The notes under the pieces were generated by a model. It made no database searches. It saw only the letters and a program-made list of their open reading frames with translations, and was not told the DNA's origin. The position numbers and the translations under genes are program-made. Positions 10,295 to 40,789 of a stretch of DNA of 52,961 bases are shown here, in pieces (the stretch's first letter is position 1; each line of letters begins with the position of its first letter). Origin of the DNA: Escherichia phage mEp013; sequence record PP180002. One strand, written 5' to 3'.

Positions 10295-10932
10295 AAACAG
10301 AGTTACACAAAAAACTGTGGACGATTCAGCAAACGCTGAATGCACCAAAAGGGCAATACAATAAATTCGGTGGATATTCATACAGATCTGCGGAGGATAT
10401 TTTAGAGGCAGTTAAGCCACTTCTACAGAATGTCACGTTAATGGTTAGCGATGAAATTGTTTTAATCGGTGATCGCTATTATGTGAAAGCAACGGCAACG
10501 CTAAGCGACGGCGAGGATTCAATTTCAGCCACTGCGTTCGCGCGTGAGGAAAAAGAGCAAAAAGGAATGACGGCAGGGCAGCTAACTGGCGCGACATCAA
10601 GTTACGCGCGGAAATATGCCCTGAACGGTCTGTTCTGTATAGACGATGCGAAAGATTTAGACACTGACGCTTACGCGAAGCAGACAGGCCAGCAGCCTCG
10701 CCAGCAGAAAAACACACCAAAACAACAACCACAGCAGCAGAAAGCGCAGCCAAATCCTGATGAAGTATTAGCACGTTTCTGTGATGCAGCAGCGAAAGCG
10801 CCTGATGCTAATAAGTTACGCGAGATCTTCGGCAAGTGCTGGAAGCTGTTACCTGAAAATTCAGAGCAACGAGTCAAAGCAAAAGATATTTACCAAATAA
10901 GGCTTGAGGAGTTAAATGGAAGTATTAACTAA
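10291..10932 (+). CDS. erf: Erf-family single-strand annealing protein
   Basis: LNAPK.QYN.FG.Y.YRS.EDILE.VKPLL N-terminal pattern as in P22 Erf (from memory); Q/P-rich C-terminus; RBS AAGGAG with GTG start. Confidence 0.75.
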   Translation: MKTELHKKLWTIQQTLNAPKGQYNKFGGYSYRSAEDILEAVKPLLQNVTLMVSDEIVLIGDRYYVKATATLSDGEDSISATAFAREEKEQKGMTAGQLTGATSSYARKYALNGLFCIDDAKDLDTDAYAKQTGQQPRQQKNTPKQQPQQQKAQPNPDEVLARFCDAAAKAPDANKLREIFGKCWKLLPENSEQRVKAKDIYQIRLEELNGSIN

Positions 10933-11524
10933 GACATGTAATAAATGCGGTAGGCGACTACCGCTTGATTGTTTTCCTAAACATAAAGGCTGCAAATATG
11001 GTGTTACTAGCACATGCGTTGAGTGCACTAAAATAAGCGTGAAAGCATTTAGGGAAAGGAATAAAGATAAAATAGCTGAACGAAATAGAAAATGGAGGGA
11101 AGAACATAAGGAAGAGATACGAGAGAAAGATAAGAAATACTACGAAGAACATAAGAAAGAATGTAATGATCGCGCGAAAAAATATAGAGAAAACAACAGG
11201 AAGAAAATTATAGAATATAAAAATGATTGGGTTAAAAGAAACGAAGAAAGATTGAAGGAGTACCGGAGAATATATCACGAAGATTATAAAGAAAGAAATA
11301 AGGCTGAACTAAAAGCAAGAACAAAACTAAGTAACGCCATTAGAGATGGCAAGATATTTAGGCCTGATAGGTGTGATCGTTGCGGAAATAAATGTACTCC
11401 TGATGGTCATCACTGGAATTATGCGTTTCCGCTTAACGTTATTTGGTTATGTAGATCTTGTCACAAAATAGTTCATGTTAAATTCGGGTGTATCCACGAA
11501 GATATTAACGGGGAGATCAATTAA
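10916..11524 (+). CDS. HNH endonuclease-like protein
   Basis: Cys-rich N-terminus; lysine-rich centre; C-terminal CDRCG..HHWNY..WLCRSCH HNH-type motif. Confidence 0.6.
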   Translation: MEVLTKTCNKCGRRLPLDCFPKHKGCKYGVTSTCVECTKISVKAFRERNKDKIAERNRKWREEHKEEIREKDKKYYEEHKKECNDRAKKYRENNRKKIIEYKNDWVKRNEERLKEYRRIYHEDYKERNKAELKARTKLSNAIRDGKIFRPDRCDRCGNKCTPDGHHWNYAFPLNVIWLCRSCHKIVHVKFGCIHEDINGEIN

Positions 11525-15426: not shown

Positions 15427-15966
15427 ATGAAAAATGATTTTGGAGGCAGTAATACGCCAAAAGAGATTAAAGACCTGTGGCAGACGCCGAAACCAGTTTT
15501 CAGGGGAATGGATCGTGAATTTGAATTTGTCGCTGACGTTGCGGCAAATAAGGAAAATGCGCTAATTCCGCGATATATAACCGAAGAAATGGACACGCTA
15601 CATTATCCGTGGGGAGCGGTGGCAATGCCTGGTGAATATGTATGGATGAATCCGCCATATTCGAATCCTGGGCCATTCGTTGACAAGGCGGCGCTAGAAC
15701 ATCAACGGAATCACATCGGTTGCGTAATGTTATTGCCCGCTGACGTTTCTGTTAGCTGGTTCATGAACGGCGTGGAGACTGCAAACGAATGCCGATTAAT
15801 CACGCGCGGGCGTCTGGCGTTTATCAATGCTGCGACTGGTAAGCCAGTAAGCGGAAACAACAAAGGCAGCTTGTTTTTGATCTGGCATCCACGGTGCAGA
15901 CATGAATGTATTTTTACACACATAACGCGTAAAGAGCTATATGCAAGAGGTGCAGAAAATGACTAG
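15427..15966 (+). CDS. phage Dam-like DNA N6-adenine methyltransferase
   Basis: 179 aa; catalytic NPPY-type motif (WMNPPYS); RBS GGGGG. Confidence 0.75.
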   Translation: MKNDFGGSNTPKEIKDLWQTPKPVFRGMDREFEFVADVAANKENALIPRYITEEMDTLHYPWGAVAMPGEYVWMNPPYSNPGPFVDKAALEHQRNHIGCVMLLPADVSVSWFMNGVETANECRLITRGRLAFINAATGKPVSGNNKGSLFLIWHPRCRHECIFTHITRKELYARGAEND

Positions 15967-16456
15967 TGCAGCAGATTTATTACGACTTGCAGCGGAAACA
16001 ATAGAGCAAAGGGGTAAACAAAACGGCTACGACAGAAAAGAGGAAAAATCGGCGCCCAAAATAGCCACTATATACAACGCTAAGAAGGGGGCAAATTTAA
16101 CACCACTTGATGTATGGGATCTAATGATTTGCCTTAAGGAGGCGCGATTAGAGGCCATTTTGGTTAATGGAAGCGATCCGACAGACACCCTGATAGATTT
16201 AATTAGCTACAGCGCACTGAAAGCGGAACAAATATTAACGGAGCGCGAGAAAGAGCAAAAGAAAAAACAGGACGCTTTTGATCTCCCTGTTGGTGGACTA
16301 GTTAAAGGTGAGGCGATAACCAGTTGTAAGGGATTGCCACCTTCTATGCTTGCACCTCAATGTGGCTGCATTCCAACTAGTGTTGGCGTGAAGTTTAATA
16401 GGGAAAATGCTATTCGTGACAAGAGGTATGACCCAAATGAAAAAGGTGGCAATTGA
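15959..16456 (+). CDS. conserved phage protein (LTP.DVW..M..LK.ARL family; function unknown)
   Basis: Recurring phage pattern RGK..GY...LTPLDVWDLMICLKEARL...DLISYSALKAE; RBS AAGAGG. Confidence 0.55.
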   Translation: MTSAADLLRLAAETIEQRGKQNGYDRKEEKSAPKIATIYNAKKGANLTPLDVWDLMICLKEARLEAILVNGSDPTDTLIDLISYSALKAEQILTEREKEQKKKQDAFDLPVGGLVKGEAITSCKGLPPSMLAPQCGCIPTSVGVKFNRENAIRDKRYDPNEKGGN

Positions 16457-16940
16457 CAGGTTACTGGCCTGCGTTTATGTCGCCGTTTTCGTGATCATCA
16501 ACCTTATTGTTAACCATTGCGGCCCGTGGGTGATTCCGATCACTACGGTAGCCGCTGTGTGTGTCAATATGATGATCCGTGACTTCCTGTTGTATGACGG
16601 CGGCCTTAAATGGTCGGCTACAACATGCGCAGCCGCTGGCGCAATTACGGTGCTGATAAATTACGATGCCGGTATGGTGGCGATAGCGTCATTAGTTGCG
16701 GTTGTTTCCGGTGCGCTTATTTCTGGCGGCGTTTACCGGGTTTTACCTGATGATTTCGATTCTAAGCGCTGGCCTGCAAATATAGCGTCCGCCATTGGCG
16801 ATGCGTTAATTTTCCCGACGCTATCGTTTATGGCATTTATGCCTGAAATATCAGCTATGCAATTCATCTCAAAAATGGCAGCGGTAACGGTGATCACGAT
16901 CATTATGCGCCGCTATTTCACGTTTGAGGGCAAAAAATGA
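16437..16940 (+). CDS. YhhQ/DUF165 (VUT-family) queuosine-precursor transporter-like membrane protein
   Basis: Polytopic; motifs resemble YhhQ family (IPITTVAAVCVNMMIRDFLLYDGG, RWPANIASAIGDALIFPTLSF); family call from memory. Confidence 0.5.
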   Translation: MKKVAIDRLLACVYVAVFVIINLIVNHCGPWVIPITTVAAVCVNMMIRDFLLYDGGLKWSATTCAAAGAITVLINYDAGMVAIASLVAVVSGALISGGVYRVLPDDFDSKRWPANIASAIGDALIFPTLSFMAFMPEISAMQFISKMAAVTVITIIMRRYFTFEGKK

Positions 16941-17701
16941 GCAAGGCTAAACACTGGTTAAATAACTGGCTTAGAAGTTGGGTTGTATGGTCGCTGTACG
17001 ACGGCAGCGGGTACGCCGTTAAAGATTGGGCGGAGGCTGGATATAAGTGCTATTGCTTCAACTATGACGGCGCAAATCACGGCGATTATGACGGGGTAAA
17101 AATAATTCATCCAAATATTGAATACGTTAACGTCTGGATTGATAGCCACTTCCTGGTAATGTTCTCCCCTGAATTGTCTGTTTATCCAGAGCCTGACATC
17201 ATCATTGGCTTTCCTCCATGCGACGATCTCGCTGTTTCTGGTGCTGCCTGGTTTTCTGTTAAGCGTGAAAAAGATCCTAACTTCCAGGTGAAGGCGGCGA
17301 ATAGCGCCAAACTGGTAGAAAAACTGGCGAATATGTATAACGTGCCGTGGATGGTGGAAAATCCGGTTGGCGTACTGTCAACGTTATGGCGCAAACCTGA
17401 TTTTATTTTCAACCCGTGCGCTTACGGTGGCTACCTGCCGGAAGATGACAAACATCCCGCTTTCCCTGAATACATCGCCGACCGCGACGCGTACACGAAG
17501 AAAACTTGTATCTGGTGTGGTAACGGATTTAAACAGCCGATTTTTAGACCTGTATCACTGACTGACGAACCTGGTAACAGTCAACAGCACAGAAAGTTAG
17601 GTGGCAAAAGCAAGCGCACTAAGATGATCCGCTCACTAACGCCGCGCGGCTTTGCCCGTGCTGTATTCCTTGCTAACCATGACCGCGCTTTACCGGACTG
17701 A
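16937..17701 (+). CDS. compact C5-cytosine methyltransferase-like protein (254 aa)
   Basis: Motif I-like LYDGSG, IV-like GFPPCDDLAVSG, VI-like ENPVG, C-terminal LTPRGFARA; ATGA coupling to YhhQ-like gene; short for a canonical enzyme. Confidence 0.5.
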   Translation: MSKAKHWLNNWLRSWVVWSLYDGSGYAVKDWAEAGYKCYCFNYDGANHGDYDGVKIIHPNIEYVNVWIDSHFLVMFSPELSVYPEPDIIIGFPPCDDLAVSGAAWFSVKREKDPNFQVKAANSAKLVEKLANMYNVPWMVENPVGVLSTLWRKPDFIFNPCAYGGYLPEDDKHPAFPEYIADRDAYTKKTCIWCGNGFKQPIFRPVSLTDEPGNSQQHRKLGGKSKRTKMIRSLTPRGFARAVFLANHDRALPD

Positions 17702-17860
17702 AATTTACAAAATGGCGTCATTGCGTGATGTGGATCACATAATGGCGCTTTTCACCTTGTTCTGACGTATCCATTTTGTATACTTCAATCAAGCAAAATG
17801 CTCTTTAAAAATCCGGCAGCGCTGAAATGCGTAGAAATCACCTGAAAAGGAGAGAGCATT

Positions 17861-24723: not shown

Positions 24724-25257
24724 ATGGCTAAGGCTAAAGGCATTAAGTTGCCTCAATTCAAAGTCCCGCTCTTTGAGCATACAACAGTTTTCTTTTGCCC
24801 GACCCGCGAGATGTTCTATGAATTTTGCGAAAAGGCAGGGATCCCAATCGAACCTGATTTCGAACTGGCAGGAGGATTGACGCTTACTTGCACGGGTGAG
24901 AAAGGCGGTAACTTCTACGTGATCGCAGTATTCGATAATGAGTTAGGAACGCTAACACATGAAGTGGCACATGCTACATTTCATTGTTTAAGTGATGTTG
25001 GCGTAATGGCTGCAACAGATCCCAGCCATCCAGCCAATGAGACTTACGCTTATATGATTGGGCGCATGTTTGATGCTTTTTATCCTGTACTACTTGAAAG
25101 CATAGACGCACAAGCCGCAGCTATCCGGGCGCAACAAGCGCTAGAAGAAGCTGAAAGAAAAAAAGAAGCCAAAAGAAAAGCAAAAGCAAAAGCAAAAGAG
25201 CCGCCAAAAGTGGAAAAATACATTGTTGCGTGGCGTAGCCGTTATGCAATGGGATGA
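24724..25257 (+). CDS. HExxH-motif protein (putative zinc metallopeptidase-like), lysine-rich C-terminus
   Basis: HEVAH motif; KAKAKAK tail; RBS GAGGAA. Confidence 0.5.
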   Translation: MAKAKGIKLPQFKVPLFEHTTVFFCPTREMFYEFCEKAGIPIEPDFELAGGLTLTCTGEKGGNFYVIAVFDNELGTLTHEVAHATFHCLSDVGVMAATDPSHPANETYAYMIGRMFDAFYPVLLESIDAQAAAIRAQQALEEAERKKEAKRKAKAKAKEPPKVEKYIVAWRSRYAMG

Positions 25258-25729
25258 TTATTTCAGTTATAACCAAGAAACAGGGGATCTAATGTGGAAG
25301 GTGTACAGATCGCCAAACGCAAAGCCAGGTGACATTATCAGAGGGACTAAATCAAGAAACAAGCATTTGCGAGTGAATTTAAACAGAAAATGTTATCAAG
25401 TTCATTGCATTATTTGGGAAATGCACAACGGCCCAATCCCTGAAGGTTATGAGATAGACCATATTGACCATGATAGATGGAATAACAGGTTATCTAATTT
25501 GAGGCTTGTTGATGATGAAGGCAATGCGCACAATATGAGTTTGTTTAAAACCAATACAAGCGGTGTTTCCGGGGTGGGCTGGCATAGTCAACGTAAAAAA
25601 TGGCGTGCAACAATATGGCATAAATGCAAACAAGTATCACTTGGTTTGTTTGACAATTTTGATGATGCTGTAATGGCACGGCGTGAAGCCGAGATTAAAT
25701 ATGGCTATCACCCAAATCATGGTCATTAA
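25244..25729 (+). CDS. HNH endonuclease with AP2-like DNA-binding domain (terminase-associated)
   Basis: HNH motif YEIDHIDHDRWNNRLSNL; AP2-like SGVSGVGWHSQRKKWRATIW; upstream of terS. Confidence 0.75.
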   Translation: MQWDDYFSYNQETGDLMWKVYRSPNAKPGDIIRGTKSRNKHLRVNLNRKCYQVHCIIWEMHNGPIPEGYEIDHIDHDRWNNRLSNLRLVDDEGNAHNMSLFKTNTSGVSGVGWHSQRKKWRATIWHKCKQVSLGLFDNFDDAVMARREAEIKYGYHPNHGH

Positions 25730-39478: not shown

Positions 39479-40789
39479 TTACGCTGCTTTTATAATTTCT
39501 TCATACTTATCTTCCACCATGCTAAAAACTTCTGGTCTATAGTAGAAAAATTCGCAACTACCATCAAATTTTACGGGGAAGTTAATTTTGTAATTACTAA
39601 GTTTTTTGTGTATCGCGCCCTCTAGTTCAAAGATATTTTGTGTCGGACCTTCTAATGTTTTTACGATATGTAAATCAGGAATTGTCACACCAGCCTTATG
39701 TGCACTGCTTAGTATTCTATTCCTTCGTTCGTTTTCCTTAACACTTACCCCTACTTTCATTAGCGTTGGCACTTCCATATCGTCAACCATGATATAAAGT
39801 TTGCCGCGTTCGTAGGATAAAAAACCTTTTTTCGCACATTTTAAACATCCGCTACCTCCTTTAAGTTTTTGCGGCGTGGTTCTCCACTTATAGCCACACA
39901 CTTTACATAGACACGATACTTTGGTTTTGTTTCCTGTTATCTTACCAACAACTTTGATATTAGGGTTGATGTTGGCAATGGCTTTTATTTGTTCTTCATG
40001 CGATATTCTTCGCGCTTGTGCTCTTTTTGATGCCGCGCACTTCGGGCAACCAGTGCCTTTTTTAAGGCTGGCTGGAGTAGTTAACCATTCATGACCGCAA
40101 TACTTACAGCTGCATAACGTCCTTGTAGTATTGCTAATAATTTTCCCTAACACCTCAACGCCAGGGCTAGTTTTCGCAATAGCTGTAACCTGTTCTTTGT
40201 GTGATAATTTCATCTTCCCTGAACATTTCGGGCAGCCAGTACCATGCTTGAGATTATTTGGAGTGGCTGACCATTCATAATTGCAAATCTTACATTTGCA
40301 TAATACGTTTTTTAAACTTGAAGTAATTTTTCCCAAGATTTCAATATTGCTGTTAACCTTCGCAATGGATGCAACTTGTTCTTCATGCGTTAATCTTCTA
40401 TCTGTACATTTCGGGCAACCTTGCCCGATTTTAAGTGTTTCAGGTCTAGCCATCCATTCGTGATTACAAACCTTGCAATGGCATAATACTTTTGTTTTAT
40501 TATTAATAATTTTCCCTAATACCTTAACATCAGGATTAACTTTAGCAATAATTGCAATCTGTTCTTCATGTGGTAATGCTCGTTTTTGCGCTCTTTTTGA
40601 TGCCGCGCACTTCGGGCAACCAATACCACGCTTAAGATCAGCAGGTCTACCAAACCATTCGTGATTACAAGTTTTGCAGCAGCATGATACTTTTTCCATA
40701 TTCCCGGTAATTACCCCTATCACCTCGATGTTGGGGTTAACTTTTGCAATGGCGGCAACTTGTTCTTCGTGTGTTAATTTTTTTGTCAT
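39479..40789 (-). CDS. five tandem zinc-ribbon repeats plus GIY-YIG-like (T5orf172/MUG113-type) C-terminal domain
   Basis: Five ~62-aa repeats (L.HEEQ.A.IAKVNP...C.C..C.HEW...GCPKC) then GKLYIMVDD..KVGVS..ERRN..EFFYY domain; paralog of 6446..6982. Confidence 0.7.
   Translation of the reverse strand: MTKKLTHEEQVAAIAKVNPNIEVIGVITGNMEKVSCCCKTCNHEWFGRPADLKRGIGCPKCAASKRAQKRALPHEEQIAIIAKVNPDVKVLGKIINNKTKVLCHCKVCNHEWMARPETLKIGQGCPKCTDRRLTHEEQVASIAKVNSNIEILGKITSSLKNVLCKCKICNYEWSATPNNLKHGTGCPKCSGKMKLSHKEQVTAIAKTSPGVEVLGKIISNTTRTLCSCKYCGHEWLTTPASLKKGTGCPKCAASKRAQARRISHEEQIKAIANINPNIKVVGKITGNKTKVSCLCKVCGYKWRTTPQKLKGGSGCLKCAKKGFLSYERGKLYIMVDDMEVPTLMKVGVSVKENERRNRILSSAHKAGVTIPDLHIVKTLEGPTQNIFELEGAIHKKLSNYKINFPVKFDGSCEFFYYRPEVFSMVEDKYEEIIKAA

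What the first reader, a model, noticed from the sequence alone, without database searches (positions are those of the whole stretch)
15427..17701. Candidate DNA-modification island: Dam-like MTase, conserved phage protein, YhhQ-like transporter coupled to a compact C5-MTase-like protein
Four co-oriented genes: an N6-adenine MTase (NPPY motif), a conserved phage protein, a polytopic protein resembling the YhhQ/DUF165 7-deazaguanine-precursor transporter family, and, overlapping it by ATGA, a 254-aa protein with C5-cytosine-MTase-like motifs (LYDGSG, GFPPCDD, ENPVG, C-terminal LTPRGFARA) but far shorter than canonical enzymes. I see no DpdA/TGT-like transglycosylase in the window, so a precursor importer coupled to a Cys-nucleophile MTase-fold enzyme is not the described dpdA-yhhQ arrangement. 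It could be an uncharacterised DNA modification or anti-restriction system.
Basis: partly seen in the sequence, partly recalled or inferred. Interest (0 to 1): 0.75.

Follow-up and report, generated by a model that had tools for sequence, protein, structure and literature searches.

The report
Two phage methylases plus an orphan transporter

Summary
The window is a temperate coliphage of the mEp021 (mEpimmI) group. Positions 15427-17701 hold four co-transcribed early genes:
- a phage Dam-family N6-adenine methylase;
- a DUF6378 protein;
- a 167-aa six-helix membrane protein, which is a very divergent VUT/YhhQ-family member;
- a 254-aa compact C5-cytosine methylase-fold protein (PHROG 757).

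The family calls, the ATGA overlap and the absence of DpdA/TGT are all confirmed. The proposed functional coupling is not supported.
- The methylase family occurs in 1,521 of 50,697 phage records. Of 80 loci carrying it (79 metagenomic viral loci plus L083), 70 have no VUT gene within 5 kb; the ten that do are all of the mEp021 lineage, one with the VUT gene truncated.
- The short phage VUT family normally sits beside a DpdA-like transglycosylase: adjacent in 59 of 80 loci, and present in 73 of 80.
- Inside the mEp021 lineage the methylase is deleted, truncated or replaced by an HNH-like gene in 7 of 46 genomes while the VUT gene stays intact. One genome shows the converse.

The residual curiosity is a small DpdA-less VUT clade. 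It is under strong purifying selection (dN/dS 0.03-0.08) and lacks several residues conserved in its DpdA-linked relatives. Its substrate and role are unknown.

Overall this is a mosaic of ordinary orphan methylases plus an unusual orphan transporter.

The parts
15427..15966 (+). Orphan phage Dam-family N6-adenine DNA methylase (179 aa, NPPY motif)
   Evidence: PF05869 at E 3.4e-52 and TIGR01712 equivalog at 143 bits, both above their cut-offs. phrog_111. PADLOC 'orphan methyltransferase' at E 4e-26. dN/dS 0.01-0.11 against relatives.
15941..16456 (+). DUF6378 protein of unknown function (171 aa). Its C-terminal half varies in length among relatives.
   Evidence: PF19905 at 34.1 bits, above the 27.1 cut-off. 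phrog_474/9871. Annotated as a DUF6378 domain-containing protein in RefSeq prophages. dN/dS 0.06-0.24. Its length varies from 100 to 181 aa in lineage members.
16437..16940 (+). Orphan, DpdA-less member of the short phage VUT/YhhQ transporter family. It is 167 aa from M at 16437; an upstream ATG at 16407 would give 177 aa.
   Evidence: - phrog_4899 at E 1e-46.
- Own Vut_1 hit at E 0.11, but 57 of 60 remote homologues hit Vut_1.
- hhalign to the canonical clade gives 99.9%, and that clade matches the CAjan preQ0-transporter annotation at 97.6%.
- The AF2 model has pLDDT 93 and is all-helical. Its top PDB folds are RibU ECF S-components, which is weak support.
- dN/dS 0.03-0.08.
- It lacks H52, D96, S123, G149-G150 and W153, which are conserved in DpdA-linked relatives.
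16937..17701 (+). Compact orphan C5-cytosine methylase-fold protein (254 aa, PHROG 757). It carries motif I YDGSG, motif IV PPC (Cys95) and motif VI ENP, with a target-recognition segment of only about 40 residues.
   Evidence: - phrog_757 at E 5.9e-88.
- More than 6,000 homologous clusters.
- 14 of 34 members hit PF00145.
- The family profile aligns motifs I-IV, including the Cys, to DNMT3B.
- The AF2 model has pLDDT 88, and Foldseek matches DNMT3A/B at E 1e-7.
- The family is present in 1,521 phage records.
- dN/dS 0.09-0.17.
17706..17780 (+). Conserved stem-loop directly after the methylase stop codon. It corresponds to the predicted terminator t4 / nutR2 region that closes this block in mEp021.
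   Evidence: The RNA fold is -27.1 kcal/mol, z = -4.0, and 0 of 200 shuffles fold as well. The sequence is nearly identical in mEp021, and its flanks are conserved in the 53-63%-identity relative L083. mEp021 annotates TERM_4 here. The paper places nutR2 downstream of the methylase gene (PMC11893012).

Best explanation
This is a mosaic stretch of accessory genes in the delayed-early (N-like antiterminated) operon of an mEp021-group temperate coliphage. It is not a single system.

**The methylases (inferred).** Two unrelated orphan DNA methylases most likely methylate replicating phage DNA. One is a Dam-family m6A enzyme and the other a compact C5-cytosine enzyme of the widespread PHROG 757 family. 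Methylation would blunt host restriction enzymes, as phage orphan methylases generally do. Enzymatic activity, cofactor and target sequence are not shown.

**The membrane protein (shown).** It is a derived member of the short phage VUT/YhhQ family. That family's normal partner is the DNA transglycosylase DpdA, for which the transporter is thought to bring in a 7-deazaguanine base such as preQ0.

**The membrane protein (inferred).** In this lineage DpdA is absent. The transporter survives as a stand-alone gene under strong purifying selection and has lost several residues that are conserved in DpdA-linked relatives. I therefore infer that it still works as a solitary small-molecule, purine-like-base transporter during lytic growth. 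It probably has a shifted substrate or a role other than feeding DNA modification, for example feeding host queuosine-tRNA salvage. Its adjacency and ATGA overlap with the methylase reflect tight operon packing, not shared chemistry.
For: **Identity of the phage and operon**
- The region is 87-92% identical at the nucleotide level to mEp044, mEp010 and mEp021 and to 35 E. coli prophages.
- No promoter or terminator excess is seen inside the block.
- A conserved terminator follows the block.

**The methylase family is autonomous**
- It has more than 6,000 clusters and occurs in 1,521 of 50,697 phage records, spanning T1-like, Kagunavirus, RB49-like, rV5-like and Jersey-like phages.
- Its neighbours outside this lineage are heterogeneous.
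- 0 of 70 non-lineage loci have a VUT or DpdA gene within 5 kb.

**The VUT family is normally DpdA-linked**
- In 59 of 80 loci a phrog_887 protein lies immediately upstream, and 73 of 80 loci have one somewhere in the locus.
- That neighbour family is homologous to the genetically validated CAjan DpdA (hhalign 97.0%, E 8.6e-11; CAjan genetics from PMC7544227).
- In the isolates PEAT2 and Phleasolo, DpdA-like follows directly downstream of the VUT gene.

**No DpdA in this phage**
- A six-frame HMM search gave a best E-value of 2.3.
- Pfam and PHROG scans of the larger unassigned ORFs found none.
- The PGAP annotation of a 90%-identical prophage lists none.

**Independent loss within the lineage**
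- The VUT gene is intact in all 46 lineage loci examined.
- The methylase is absent in 3 of them: replaced by an HNH-like ORF with the same ATGA junction in L175, missing in L176 (what lies downstream there was not read), and cleanly deleted in L201. It is truncated in 4 more.
- L085 has lost the dam 3' end, DUF6378 and the VUT 5' end but keeps the methylase.

**Selection and residue changes**
- dN/dS is 0.03-0.08 for the VUT gene.
- The residue changes are shared by the other DpdA-less relatives P0129, P0133 and P0140.
Against: - No biochemical data exist for any of the four proteins. No paper characterising a PHROG 757 member was found.
- The module order Dam - DUF6378 - VUT - methylase is conserved down to 53-63% protein identity (L083), so the neighbourhood is older than simple chance adjacency.
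- One 121-kb metagenomic phage carries both an orphan-clade VUT gene and this methylase family, although about 70 kb apart.
- A gene expressed only in the lytic early operon is an odd way to influence host tRNA queuosine, so the positive role assigned to the transporter is weak.
- Absence of DpdA rests on sequence searches. Divergent DpdA subfamilies have been missed before (PMC10516641).
- The 80-locus VUT sample was retrieved with a peptide pattern (DS..FP..AF) that favours the canonical clade.
Confidence: 0.68

Rival explanations
1. The VUT-like importer supplies a precursor to the adjacent Cys-nucleophile methylase-fold enzyme, and the pair installs a non-methyl, uncharacterised DNA modification in this lineage.
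For: - The two genes overlap by ATGA and are co-transcribed.
- The pair is conserved at 53%/63% identity in L083.
- The transporter has diverged from its DpdA-linked relatives at conserved positions, which is compatible with a new substrate.
- Both genes are under purifying selection.
Against: - The methylase family is found almost everywhere without any VUT gene.
- The other DpdA-less VUT relatives have no such methylase nearby.
- 7 of 46 lineage genomes keep an intact VUT gene with the methylase deleted, truncated or replaced, and one genome shows the converse.
- The methylase keeps the ordinary SAM-type motif I and the catalytic PC and ENV-type motifs.
- The ATGA junction persists with an unrelated replacement gene.
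Confidence: 0.04
2. The transporter still serves 7-deazaguanine DNA modification. It would feed a transglycosylase that was not recognised here, either a very divergent phage protein or a host or co-resident prophage DpdA.
For: - The family to which it belongs is tightly DpdA-linked.
- DpdA subfamilies have escaped detection before, as with CP220 and HVTV-1 (PMC10516641).
- The phage has many early ORFs of unknown function.
Against: - No ORF in the window matches the DpdA-like profile; the best E-value is 2.3.
- The unassigned ORFs of at least 197 aa that were scanned have other assignments or no TGT signal.
- All members of the DpdA-less clade share loss of residues that are conserved in DpdA-linked transporters, which suggests a changed role.
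- mEp phages are propagated on E. coli K-12 strains. My own knowledge is that K-12 has no dpd cluster.
Confidence: 0.08
3. A tRNA-directed pair. The transporter would raise queuosine-precursor supply for host tRNA, and the compact C5 enzyme would act as a Dnmt2-like tRNA m5C methylase. This would parallel the known stimulation of Dnmt2 by queuosine in eukaryotes.
For: - YhhQ-type proteins import preQ0/preQ1 for tRNA queuosine (Zallot et al. 2017, as cited in PMC7544227).
- Hutinet et al. suggest that phages with Q-pathway genes but no DpdA may boost host Q (PMC6884629).
- The link between Dnmt2 and queuosine is from my own knowledge.
Against: - The best structural matches are DNA methylases (DNMT3A/B, DNMT1, MET1, DIM2). 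No Dnmt2 appears in the top 50.
- The methylase family's distribution is independent of VUT genes.
- The genes lie in a lytic early operon.
- E. coli already encodes its own Q pathway and YhhQ (PMC6884629).
Confidence: 0.04
4. The VUT-like protein has been co-opted for a role other than transport, for example a membrane-acting superinfection-exclusion, lysis-timing or anti-defence protein. Its transporter ancestry would then be irrelevant.
For: - Residues conserved in the canonical clade have been lost.
- No partner enzyme occurs in any of three independent contexts.
- Selection is strong, so the protein has some function.
Against: - The core polar residues shared by the whole family are kept: Y14, N22, R48, D49, S85, N115, D122, Q142 and K146.
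- The model keeps the compact helical S-component-like fold.
- There is no PADLOC or other defence-related hit.
Confidence: 0.12

Closest known systems
Phage dpdA-yhhQ (VUT) cassettes for 7-deazaguanine DNA modification, for example Escherichia phage CAjan gp35/gp41, Pectobacterium phage PEAT2 gp18/gp19 and Rogunavirinae such as Phleasolo
   Same: The membrane protein belongs to the same family of short (about 160 aa) phage VUT proteins. hhalign gives 99.9% to the canonical clade, and that clade matches the CAjan 'preQ0 transporter' at 97.6%. Size, helical architecture and core polar residues are the same.
   Different: - There is no DpdA and there are no preQ0-synthesis genes.
- H52, D96, S123, G149-G150 and W153 are replaced.
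- The direct comparison with CAjan gp41 is not significant.
- The gene downstream is a C5 methylase-fold gene instead of DpdA.
E. coli YhhQ (COG1738 / Pfam Vut_1), the preQ0/preQ1 importer
   Same: Superfamily membership is supported through intermediate sequences: 57 of 60 remote homologues hit PF02592.
   Different: The window protein scores only 13.3 bits against a cut-off of 27.2. It is about 55 residues shorter than E. coli YhhQ (221 aa, from my own knowledge). Its substrate is untested.
PHROG 757 compact orphan 'Dcm-like' C5-cytosine methylases of enterobacterial phages (annotated in rV5-like, RB49-like, T1-like and Jersey-like phages, Kagunavirus and PVP-SE1)
   Same: It is a full-length member at E 5.9e-88. 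It is 55-65% identical to hundreds of phage proteins with the same invariant motifs: FDGSG, PPC, ENP and GGKS-RTK-IRSLTPRG.
   Different: Nothing substantive. This copy has a 15-residue N-terminal extension, and motif IV reads PPCDD instead of the family's PPCTD.
Eukaryotic DNMT3A/DNMT3B catalytic domain
   Same: It is the best structural match (Foldseek E 1e-7, probability 1.0, TM about 0.5). The family profile aligns motif I and the catalytic Pro-Cys to DNMT3B. Both have a very small target-recognition region.
   Different: Sequence identity is only 12-18%. The phage protein has no regulatory domains, is about 30 residues shorter, and its C-terminal DNA-contact segment is different.
Phage Dam family (PF05869 / TIGR01712), orphan N6-adenine methylases of lambdoid and T1-like phages
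   Same: It passes both curated thresholds and has the NPPY motif.
   Different: None noted.

Membership tests
Phage Dam N6-adenine methylase (PF05869 / TIGR01712) | Score above the curated family thresholds over the full length | tested here: met
   PF05869 scores 177 bits against a cut-off of 28.1, covering residues 7-176 and profile positions 1-167 of 169. TIGR01712 scores 143 bits against 97.
Phage Dam N6-adenine methylase (PF05869 / TIGR01712) | Catalytic (D/N)PPY motif | tested here: met
   MNPPYSN is present in the translation.
Phage Dam N6-adenine methylase (PF05869 / TIGR01712) | m6A methylation of DNA (GATC or other) | not testable with these tools
   Needs SMRT or nanopore sequencing, or DpnI/MboI digestion of phage DNA.
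VUT / YhhQ (Pfam Vut_1 PF02592, COG1738) | Pfam gathering score reached by the protein itself | tested here: not met
   13.3 bits against a cut-off of 27.2, E 0.11, although the match spans positions 6-149 of the 152-position profile.
VUT / YhhQ (Pfam Vut_1 PF02592, COG1738) | Homology demonstrable through intermediate sequences or profiles | tested here: met
   An exhaustive profile search found 254 representatives, and 57 of the 60 top ones hit Vut_1, best E 1.3e-13. hhalign of the lineage profile against the canonical clade gives 99.9%, E 6e-33. RefSeq annotates relatives as 'VUT family protein'.
VUT / YhhQ (Pfam Vut_1 PF02592, COG1738) | Polytopic helical membrane fold of the S-component type | tested here: inconclusive
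   The AF2 model has pLDDT 93 and is all-helical. The top PDB matches are RibU S-components at TM about 0.48, but their E-values (0.6 and above) are not significant. The top BFVD match with a name is 'putative vitamin uptake transporter', E 0.07. mEp021 annotators report 6 TM helices.
VUT / YhhQ (Pfam Vut_1 PF02592, COG1738) | Transport of preQ0/preQ1 | not testable with these tools
   Needs the queD yhhQ complementation assay of Zallot et al. 2017.
Phage dpdA-VUT 7-deazaguanine DNA-modification cassette | A DpdA (TGT-like DNA transglycosylase) gene in the same genome, normally adjacent | tested here: not met
   The profile built from the DpdA-like neighbours found nothing in a six-frame search of the window (best E 2.3). 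There is no TGT hit in Pfam or PHROG scans of the larger unassigned ORFs, and none in the PGAP annotation of a related prophage. For comparison, 73 of 80 canonical loci have one.
Phage dpdA-VUT 7-deazaguanine DNA-modification cassette | Residues conserved in DpdA-linked VUT proteins (H52, D96, S123, G149-G150, W153; window numbering) | tested here: not met
   The window has L52, S96, A123, A149, V150 and I153. The canonical signature HDSGGW or a near variant occurs in about 110 of 139 family representatives.
Phage dpdA-VUT 7-deazaguanine DNA-modification cassette | 7-deazaguanine nucleosides in virion DNA | not testable with these tools
   Needs LC-MS/MS.
C5-cytosine DNA methylase (PF00145) | Pfam hit by the protein itself | tested here: not met
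   No Pfam family at E up to 1. However, 14 of 34 close family members hit PF00145, best E 1.3e-6.
C5-cytosine DNA methylase (PF00145) | Motif I (FxGxG), motif IV Pro-Cys nucleophile and motif VI ENV | tested here: met
   YDGSG (FDGSG in the family), PPC with invariant C95, and invariant E141-N142-P143. The profile alignment places FDGSG and PPC on DNMT3B motifs I and IV.
C5-cytosine DNA methylase (PF00145) | Class I methylase fold resembling solved C5 DNA methylases | tested here: met
   The AF2 model has pLDDT 88 and pTM 0.87. Foldseek finds 80 PDB matches at E up to 1e-3. All 50 rows printed are C5 DNA-methylase structures or their complexes: DNMT3A/B, DNMT1, MET1 and DIM2.
C5-cytosine DNA methylase (PF00145) | Sizeable target-recognition domain between motifs VIII and IX | tested here: not met
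   Only about 40 residues separate the strand at 190-195 from the C-terminal helices, and part of that segment has low confidence. The segment is nearly invariant across the family.
C5-cytosine DNA methylase (PF00145) | SAM-dependent m5C formation in DNA | not testable with these tools
   Needs bisulfite or EM-seq, or restriction-protection assays.
DUF6378 (PF19905) | Pfam gathering score | tested here: met
   34.1 bits against a cut-off of 27.1, residues 13-96.

The most novel reading that the evidence does not exclude
In the mEp021 lineage the diverged VUT transporter and the C5 methylase-fold enzyme have become a working pair. The transporter would import a small molecule other than preQ0, and the Cys-nucleophile enzyme would attach it, or depend on it, to make a non-methyl C5 modification of cytosine. 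That would be a DpdA-independent route from an imported precursor to modified phage DNA.

A weaker version is that the DpdA-less VUT clade has a new substrate and a phage function unrelated to DNA modification.
Probability: 0.05. Interest if true: 0.8.

Novelty: new variant of a known kind. Interest (0 to 1): 0.3.

Why it matters
If the best explanation holds, the locus adds little. Orphan Dam and Dcm-like methylases in the early region of temperate phages are commonplace.

Two points have some value.

1. The short phage VUT family is shown here to be a near-obligate neighbour of DpdA, which strengthens its assignment as the 7-deazaguanine-base importer of these cassettes.
2. A small clade, found in common human-gut coliphages (the mEpimmI group) and a few large phages, has kept the transporter without DpdA. 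It is under strong purifying selection and has altered conserved residues. That is a clean natural experiment for asking what else a YhhQ-type transporter can do for a phage, and it is testable with existing E. coli K-12 phages and existing transport assays.

The compact PHROG 757 methylase occurs in about 3% of sequenced phages, and my searches found no published specificity for it. Determining its target motif would annotate more than a thousand phage genomes.

Tried and rejected
- **Sequence searches against PDB.** Both proteins alone gave nothing useful. The methylase family profile gave only weak DNMT3B hits at E 0.13. The DpdA-like profile gave none.
- **Family scans of the DpdA-like neighbour.** NCBIfam and Pfam found nothing for it. 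Its identity rests on phrog_887, RefSeq naming and hhalign to CAjan DpdA.
- **Defence-system models.** PADLOC matched only the Dam protein, as an orphan methylase.
- **Literature.** Searches for a characterised PHROG 757-type methylase or for DpdA-less phage YhhQ found nothing specific. The Hutinet 2019 table lists one YhhQ-only virus in the part I read (part 2 of 2) and no mEp phage.
- **A mapping error, corrected.** A first residue-signature table built on hmmalign coordinates was mis-indexed. It was redone with MAFFT.
- **D44N rejected as a hallmark.** I first took D44N as the mark of DpdA-less proteins. The wider sample shows position 44 varies in canonical proteins too, so only H52, D96, S123, GG149-150 and W153 are used.
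- **No shared neighbour.** I looked for a gene common to the three DpdA-less contexts (mEp lineage, L164, L171) and found none.
- **CAjan comparison.** The lineage profile compared directly with the CAjan transporter is not significant.
- **Promoters and terminators.** Consensus scans inside the block are at chance level.


Full report
**What the window is.** The 2.3-kb region is 87-92% identical at the nucleotide level to Escherichia phages mEp044, mEp010, mEp021, mEp515, mEp554 and MagusPhagus. It also matches prophages in 35 of 5,426 complete E. coli genomes. These are the Nus-dependent, non-lambdoid 'mEpimmI' temperate coliphages described in PMC11893012. In mEp021 the same four genes are annotated gp30-gp33: a putative N6-adenine methylase, a hypothetical protein, a putative membrane protein with 6 TM helices, and a putative cytosine methylase. 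They are followed by a predicted terminator and then NinF, NinG, RusA and Q. The paper places the nutR2 site just downstream of the methylase gene. The four genes therefore belong to the delayed-early, N-like-antiterminated right operon.

**Checking the observation.**
- The first matches Pfam Dam (PF05869, E 3.4e-52) and the TIGR01712 equivalog, both above curated thresholds. It carries NPPY.
- The second passes the DUF6378 threshold.
- The membrane protein most likely starts at the second ATG (16437), as in its homologues. Its TGA overlaps the ATG of the 254-aa gene (aaaATGAgc).
- The 254-aa protein contains the quoted motifs.
- Promoter- and terminator-like sites inside the block are no more frequent than in shuffled sequence.
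- A strongly folding stem-loop follows the last stop codon (z = -4.0; 0 of 200 shuffles fold as well). It is nearly identical in mEp021, and its flanks are conserved in a relative only 53-63% identical at protein level.

**The 254-aa protein.** It has no Pfam, NCBIfam or PDB sequence hit of its own. It is nevertheless a full-length member of PHROG 757, 'DNA methyltransferase' (E 5.9e-88).
- A database search found more than 6,000 homologous clusters, mostly 227-260 aa.
- In an alignment of 34 members the motifs FDGSG, FPPC(T/D)D, ENP, KKTC and GGKS-RTK-IRSLTPRG are invariant or nearly so.
- 14 of the 34 members hit PF00145, best E 1.3e-6.
- The family profile aligns motif I and the Pro-Cys of motif IV onto DNMT3B.
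- The AlphaFold model is confident (pLDDT 88, pTM 0.87). All 50 PDB matches listed are C5 DNA methylases, led by DNMT3B and DNMT3A (E 1e-7, probability 1.0, TM about 0.5).
- The segment between the motif VIII strand and the C-terminal helices is only about 40 residues. This explains the small size and resembles the minimal target-recognition region of DNMT3.
- tblastn finds the family in 1,521 of 50,697 phage records, across unrelated groups: T1-like, Kagunavirus, RB49-like, rV5-like, Jersey-like and PVP-SE1. It is often annotated Dcm or C5 methylase.

It is a common, compact orphan phage methylase. I found no paper that determines its specificity.

**The membrane protein.** Its own Vut_1 hit is sub-threshold (E 0.11), although it spans nearly the whole profile. 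The word-indexed search found only close relatives. I therefore used the exhaustive HMMER search with a profile of those relatives, which gave 254 representatives at E up to 1e-3.
- Of the 60 best full-length representatives, 57 hit Vut_1, best E 1.3e-13.
- Profile-profile comparison of the mEp-lineage alignment with 27 canonical members gives 99.9% probability, E 6e-33, over 155 columns.
- That canonical clade matches the 159-aa 'putative preQ0 transporter' gp41 of phage CAjan at 97.6%.
- The AlphaFold model is confident (pLDDT 93) and entirely helical. Its best PDB matches are the riboflavin S-component RibU, and its best named viral match is a 'putative vitamin uptake transporter'. All are below significance, so they are only supportive.

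**What the VUT family normally does in phages.** I fetched 80 viral-contig loci encoding relatives that are 30-37% identical.
- In 59 of them the immediately upstream gene is a protein of about 245 aa. In 73 the same family is present somewhere within 6 kb.
- That protein is phrog_887, 'queuine tRNA-ribosyltransferase' (E 2.8e-67).
- It is homologous to CAjan DpdA (hhalign 97.0%, E 8.6e-11). Deletion of CAjan dpdA abolishes dPreQ0 in the DNA (PMC7544227).
- In the cultured phages PEAT2 and Phleasolo the DpdA-like gene follows directly downstream of the VUT gene.
- This matches the published idea that phages with DpdA but no preQ0 synthesis genes rely on host or imported precursor (PMC6884629; PMC8306585).

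One caveat applies. The retrieval pattern used for these 80 loci contains 'DS', which favours the canonical clade.

**No DpdA here.**
- A profile built from the DpdA-like neighbours finds nothing in a six-frame translation of the window; the best E-value is 2.3.
- Pfam and PHROG scans of the larger unassigned ORFs give integrase, DnaB, replication and HTH proteins, repressor, exonuclease, NinB and HNH, with no TGT-like hit.
- The PGAP annotation of a 90%-identical prophage lists none.

**Is the transporter coupled to the methylase?** Four lines of evidence say no.
1. Of 80 loci carrying the methylase family (79 viral-contig loci plus L083), only nine mEp-type loci (L084-L090, L115, L083) have an intact VUT gene, and L085 retains only a truncated one. 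The 70 others, at 32-63% identity, have no VUT or DpdA gene within 5 kb. Their neighbours are heterogeneous.
2. Only 2 of the 80 VUT loci contain this methylase.
3. Within the lineage the two genes come apart. Among 46 lineage loci the VUT gene is always intact, while the methylase is missing in three and truncated in four. In L175 it is replaced by a 175-aa ORF with an HNH-type motif, and the same ATGA junction is kept. In L201 it is cleanly deleted. Conversely, L085 has a deletion removing the dam 3' end, DUF6378 and the VUT 5' end but keeps the methylase.
4. The nearest non-lineage relatives of the VUT protein sit in other contexts. P0133 (45% identical) lies between small unknown genes, with an N6_N4 methylase three genes downstream. 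P0140 lies between a DNA ligase and a lysozyme-like gene in a 128-kb phage. Neither has the C5 methylase or DpdA nearby, and no neighbour is shared among the three contexts. rV5-like isolates carry the methylase, but none carries a P0140-like VUT gene.

**The residual oddity.** The orphan VUT gene is not decaying. Pairwise dN/dS against seven relatives is 0.03-0.08. That is as low as Dam (0.01-0.11) and lower than the methylase (0.09-0.17) or DUF6378 (0.06-0.24).
- It keeps the polar residues shared by the whole family: Y14, N22, R48, D49, S85, N115, D122, Q142 and K146.
- It has replaced H52, D96, S123, G149, G150 and W153, which are conserved in 78-98% of the remote homologues.
- P0129, P0133 and P0140, and no other representatives, share the loss of H52, D96, G149-G150 and W153; S123 is also lost in P0129 and P0140 but kept in P0133. 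All of these lack DpdA.
- P0136 and the Rogunavirinae proteins, which do have DpdA, are intermediate.

There is therefore a small DpdA-less clade with an altered set of conserved residues. I infer a retained transport function with a shifted substrate or role, but nothing here shows what it is. The Hutinet 2019 survey lists only one YhhQ-only virus in the part of the table I read, and no mEp phage.

**Verdict.** The 'island' is a mosaic of independently mobile accessory genes: two ordinary orphan methylases, a DUF6378 protein, and an unusual orphan VUT transporter. The hypothesis of a new importer-plus-Cys-enzyme modification system is not excluded by chemistry, but it is contradicted by distribution and by natural deletion variants. 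I give it about 5%. Interest is modest. The point worth following up is the DpdA-less VUT clade, and secondarily the unknown specificity of a methylase family present in about 3% of sequenced phages.

Noticed in passing
window 39479-40789 (- strand): A 436-aa ORF on the opposite strand inside the tail-gene region. It has five DUF4379 treble-clef zinc-finger repeats, three CapR-homology repeats and a C-terminal T5orf172 domain. It coincides with the lowest GC of the window, 0.387 at 40-41 kb. It looks like an inserted moron or a nuclease-like accessory gene.
   Followed up: no
L175 6501-7028 (IMG/VR contig of the mEp021 lineage); L176 also lacks the methylase: In L175 the C5-methylase slot is occupied by a 175-aa ORF with an HNH-type motif (DHINHVKTDNR). 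The ORF starts with the same ATGA overlap on the VUT stop codon. In L201 the methylase is simply deleted. L176 lacks the methylase by HMM, but what lies downstream of its VUT gene was not read.
   Followed up: partly
L085 (IMG/VR 3300045988_049781), equivalent to window 15534-16690: A natural 1.16-kb deletion removes most of dam, all of DUF6378 and the 5' half of the VUT gene, and leaves the methylase intact. It probably corresponds to the chimeric 115-aa 'Dam + VUT C-terminus' protein P0130, which was seen on 7 contigs.
   Followed up: partly
L003-L082 (viral contigs): The canonical two-gene DpdA-like + short VUT cassette repeatedly sits among NinB, RusA-like, helicase, PAPS-reductase-like and replication genes. 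This is the same kind of 'nin' accessory region as in this window.
   Followed up: partly
L222 and L116 (both from contig IMGVR_UViG_3300045988_157310, 121 kb): One large metagenomic phage encodes both an orphan-clade VUT protein and a PHROG 757-type methylase, about 70 kb apart. Whether this genome-level co-occurrence exceeds chance was not tested.
   Followed up: no
window 28432-29823 (+); homologue at L163 33400-34770: PGAP names the homologue of this 463-aa ORF 'anti-CBASS protein Acb1 family protein'. The ORF lies just downstream of the large terminase gene, in the head-gene block. The name was not checked.
   Followed up: no
window 10916-11524 (+) and 25223-25729 (+): Two HNH/endonuclease VII-type ORFs. 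The first has a Lar-like N-terminus and lies in the recombination module. The second (phrog_99) lies next to the terminase genes.
   Followed up: no
L163 19396-20190 (prophage in E. coli N1286, NZ_CP178401.1): RefSeq annotates the methylase homologue only from an internal start (163 aa, 'hypothetical protein'), although the full reading frame is open and scores 416 bits with the family profile. Several database entries for this family are similarly N-terminally short (P0004, P0029).
   Followed up: partly
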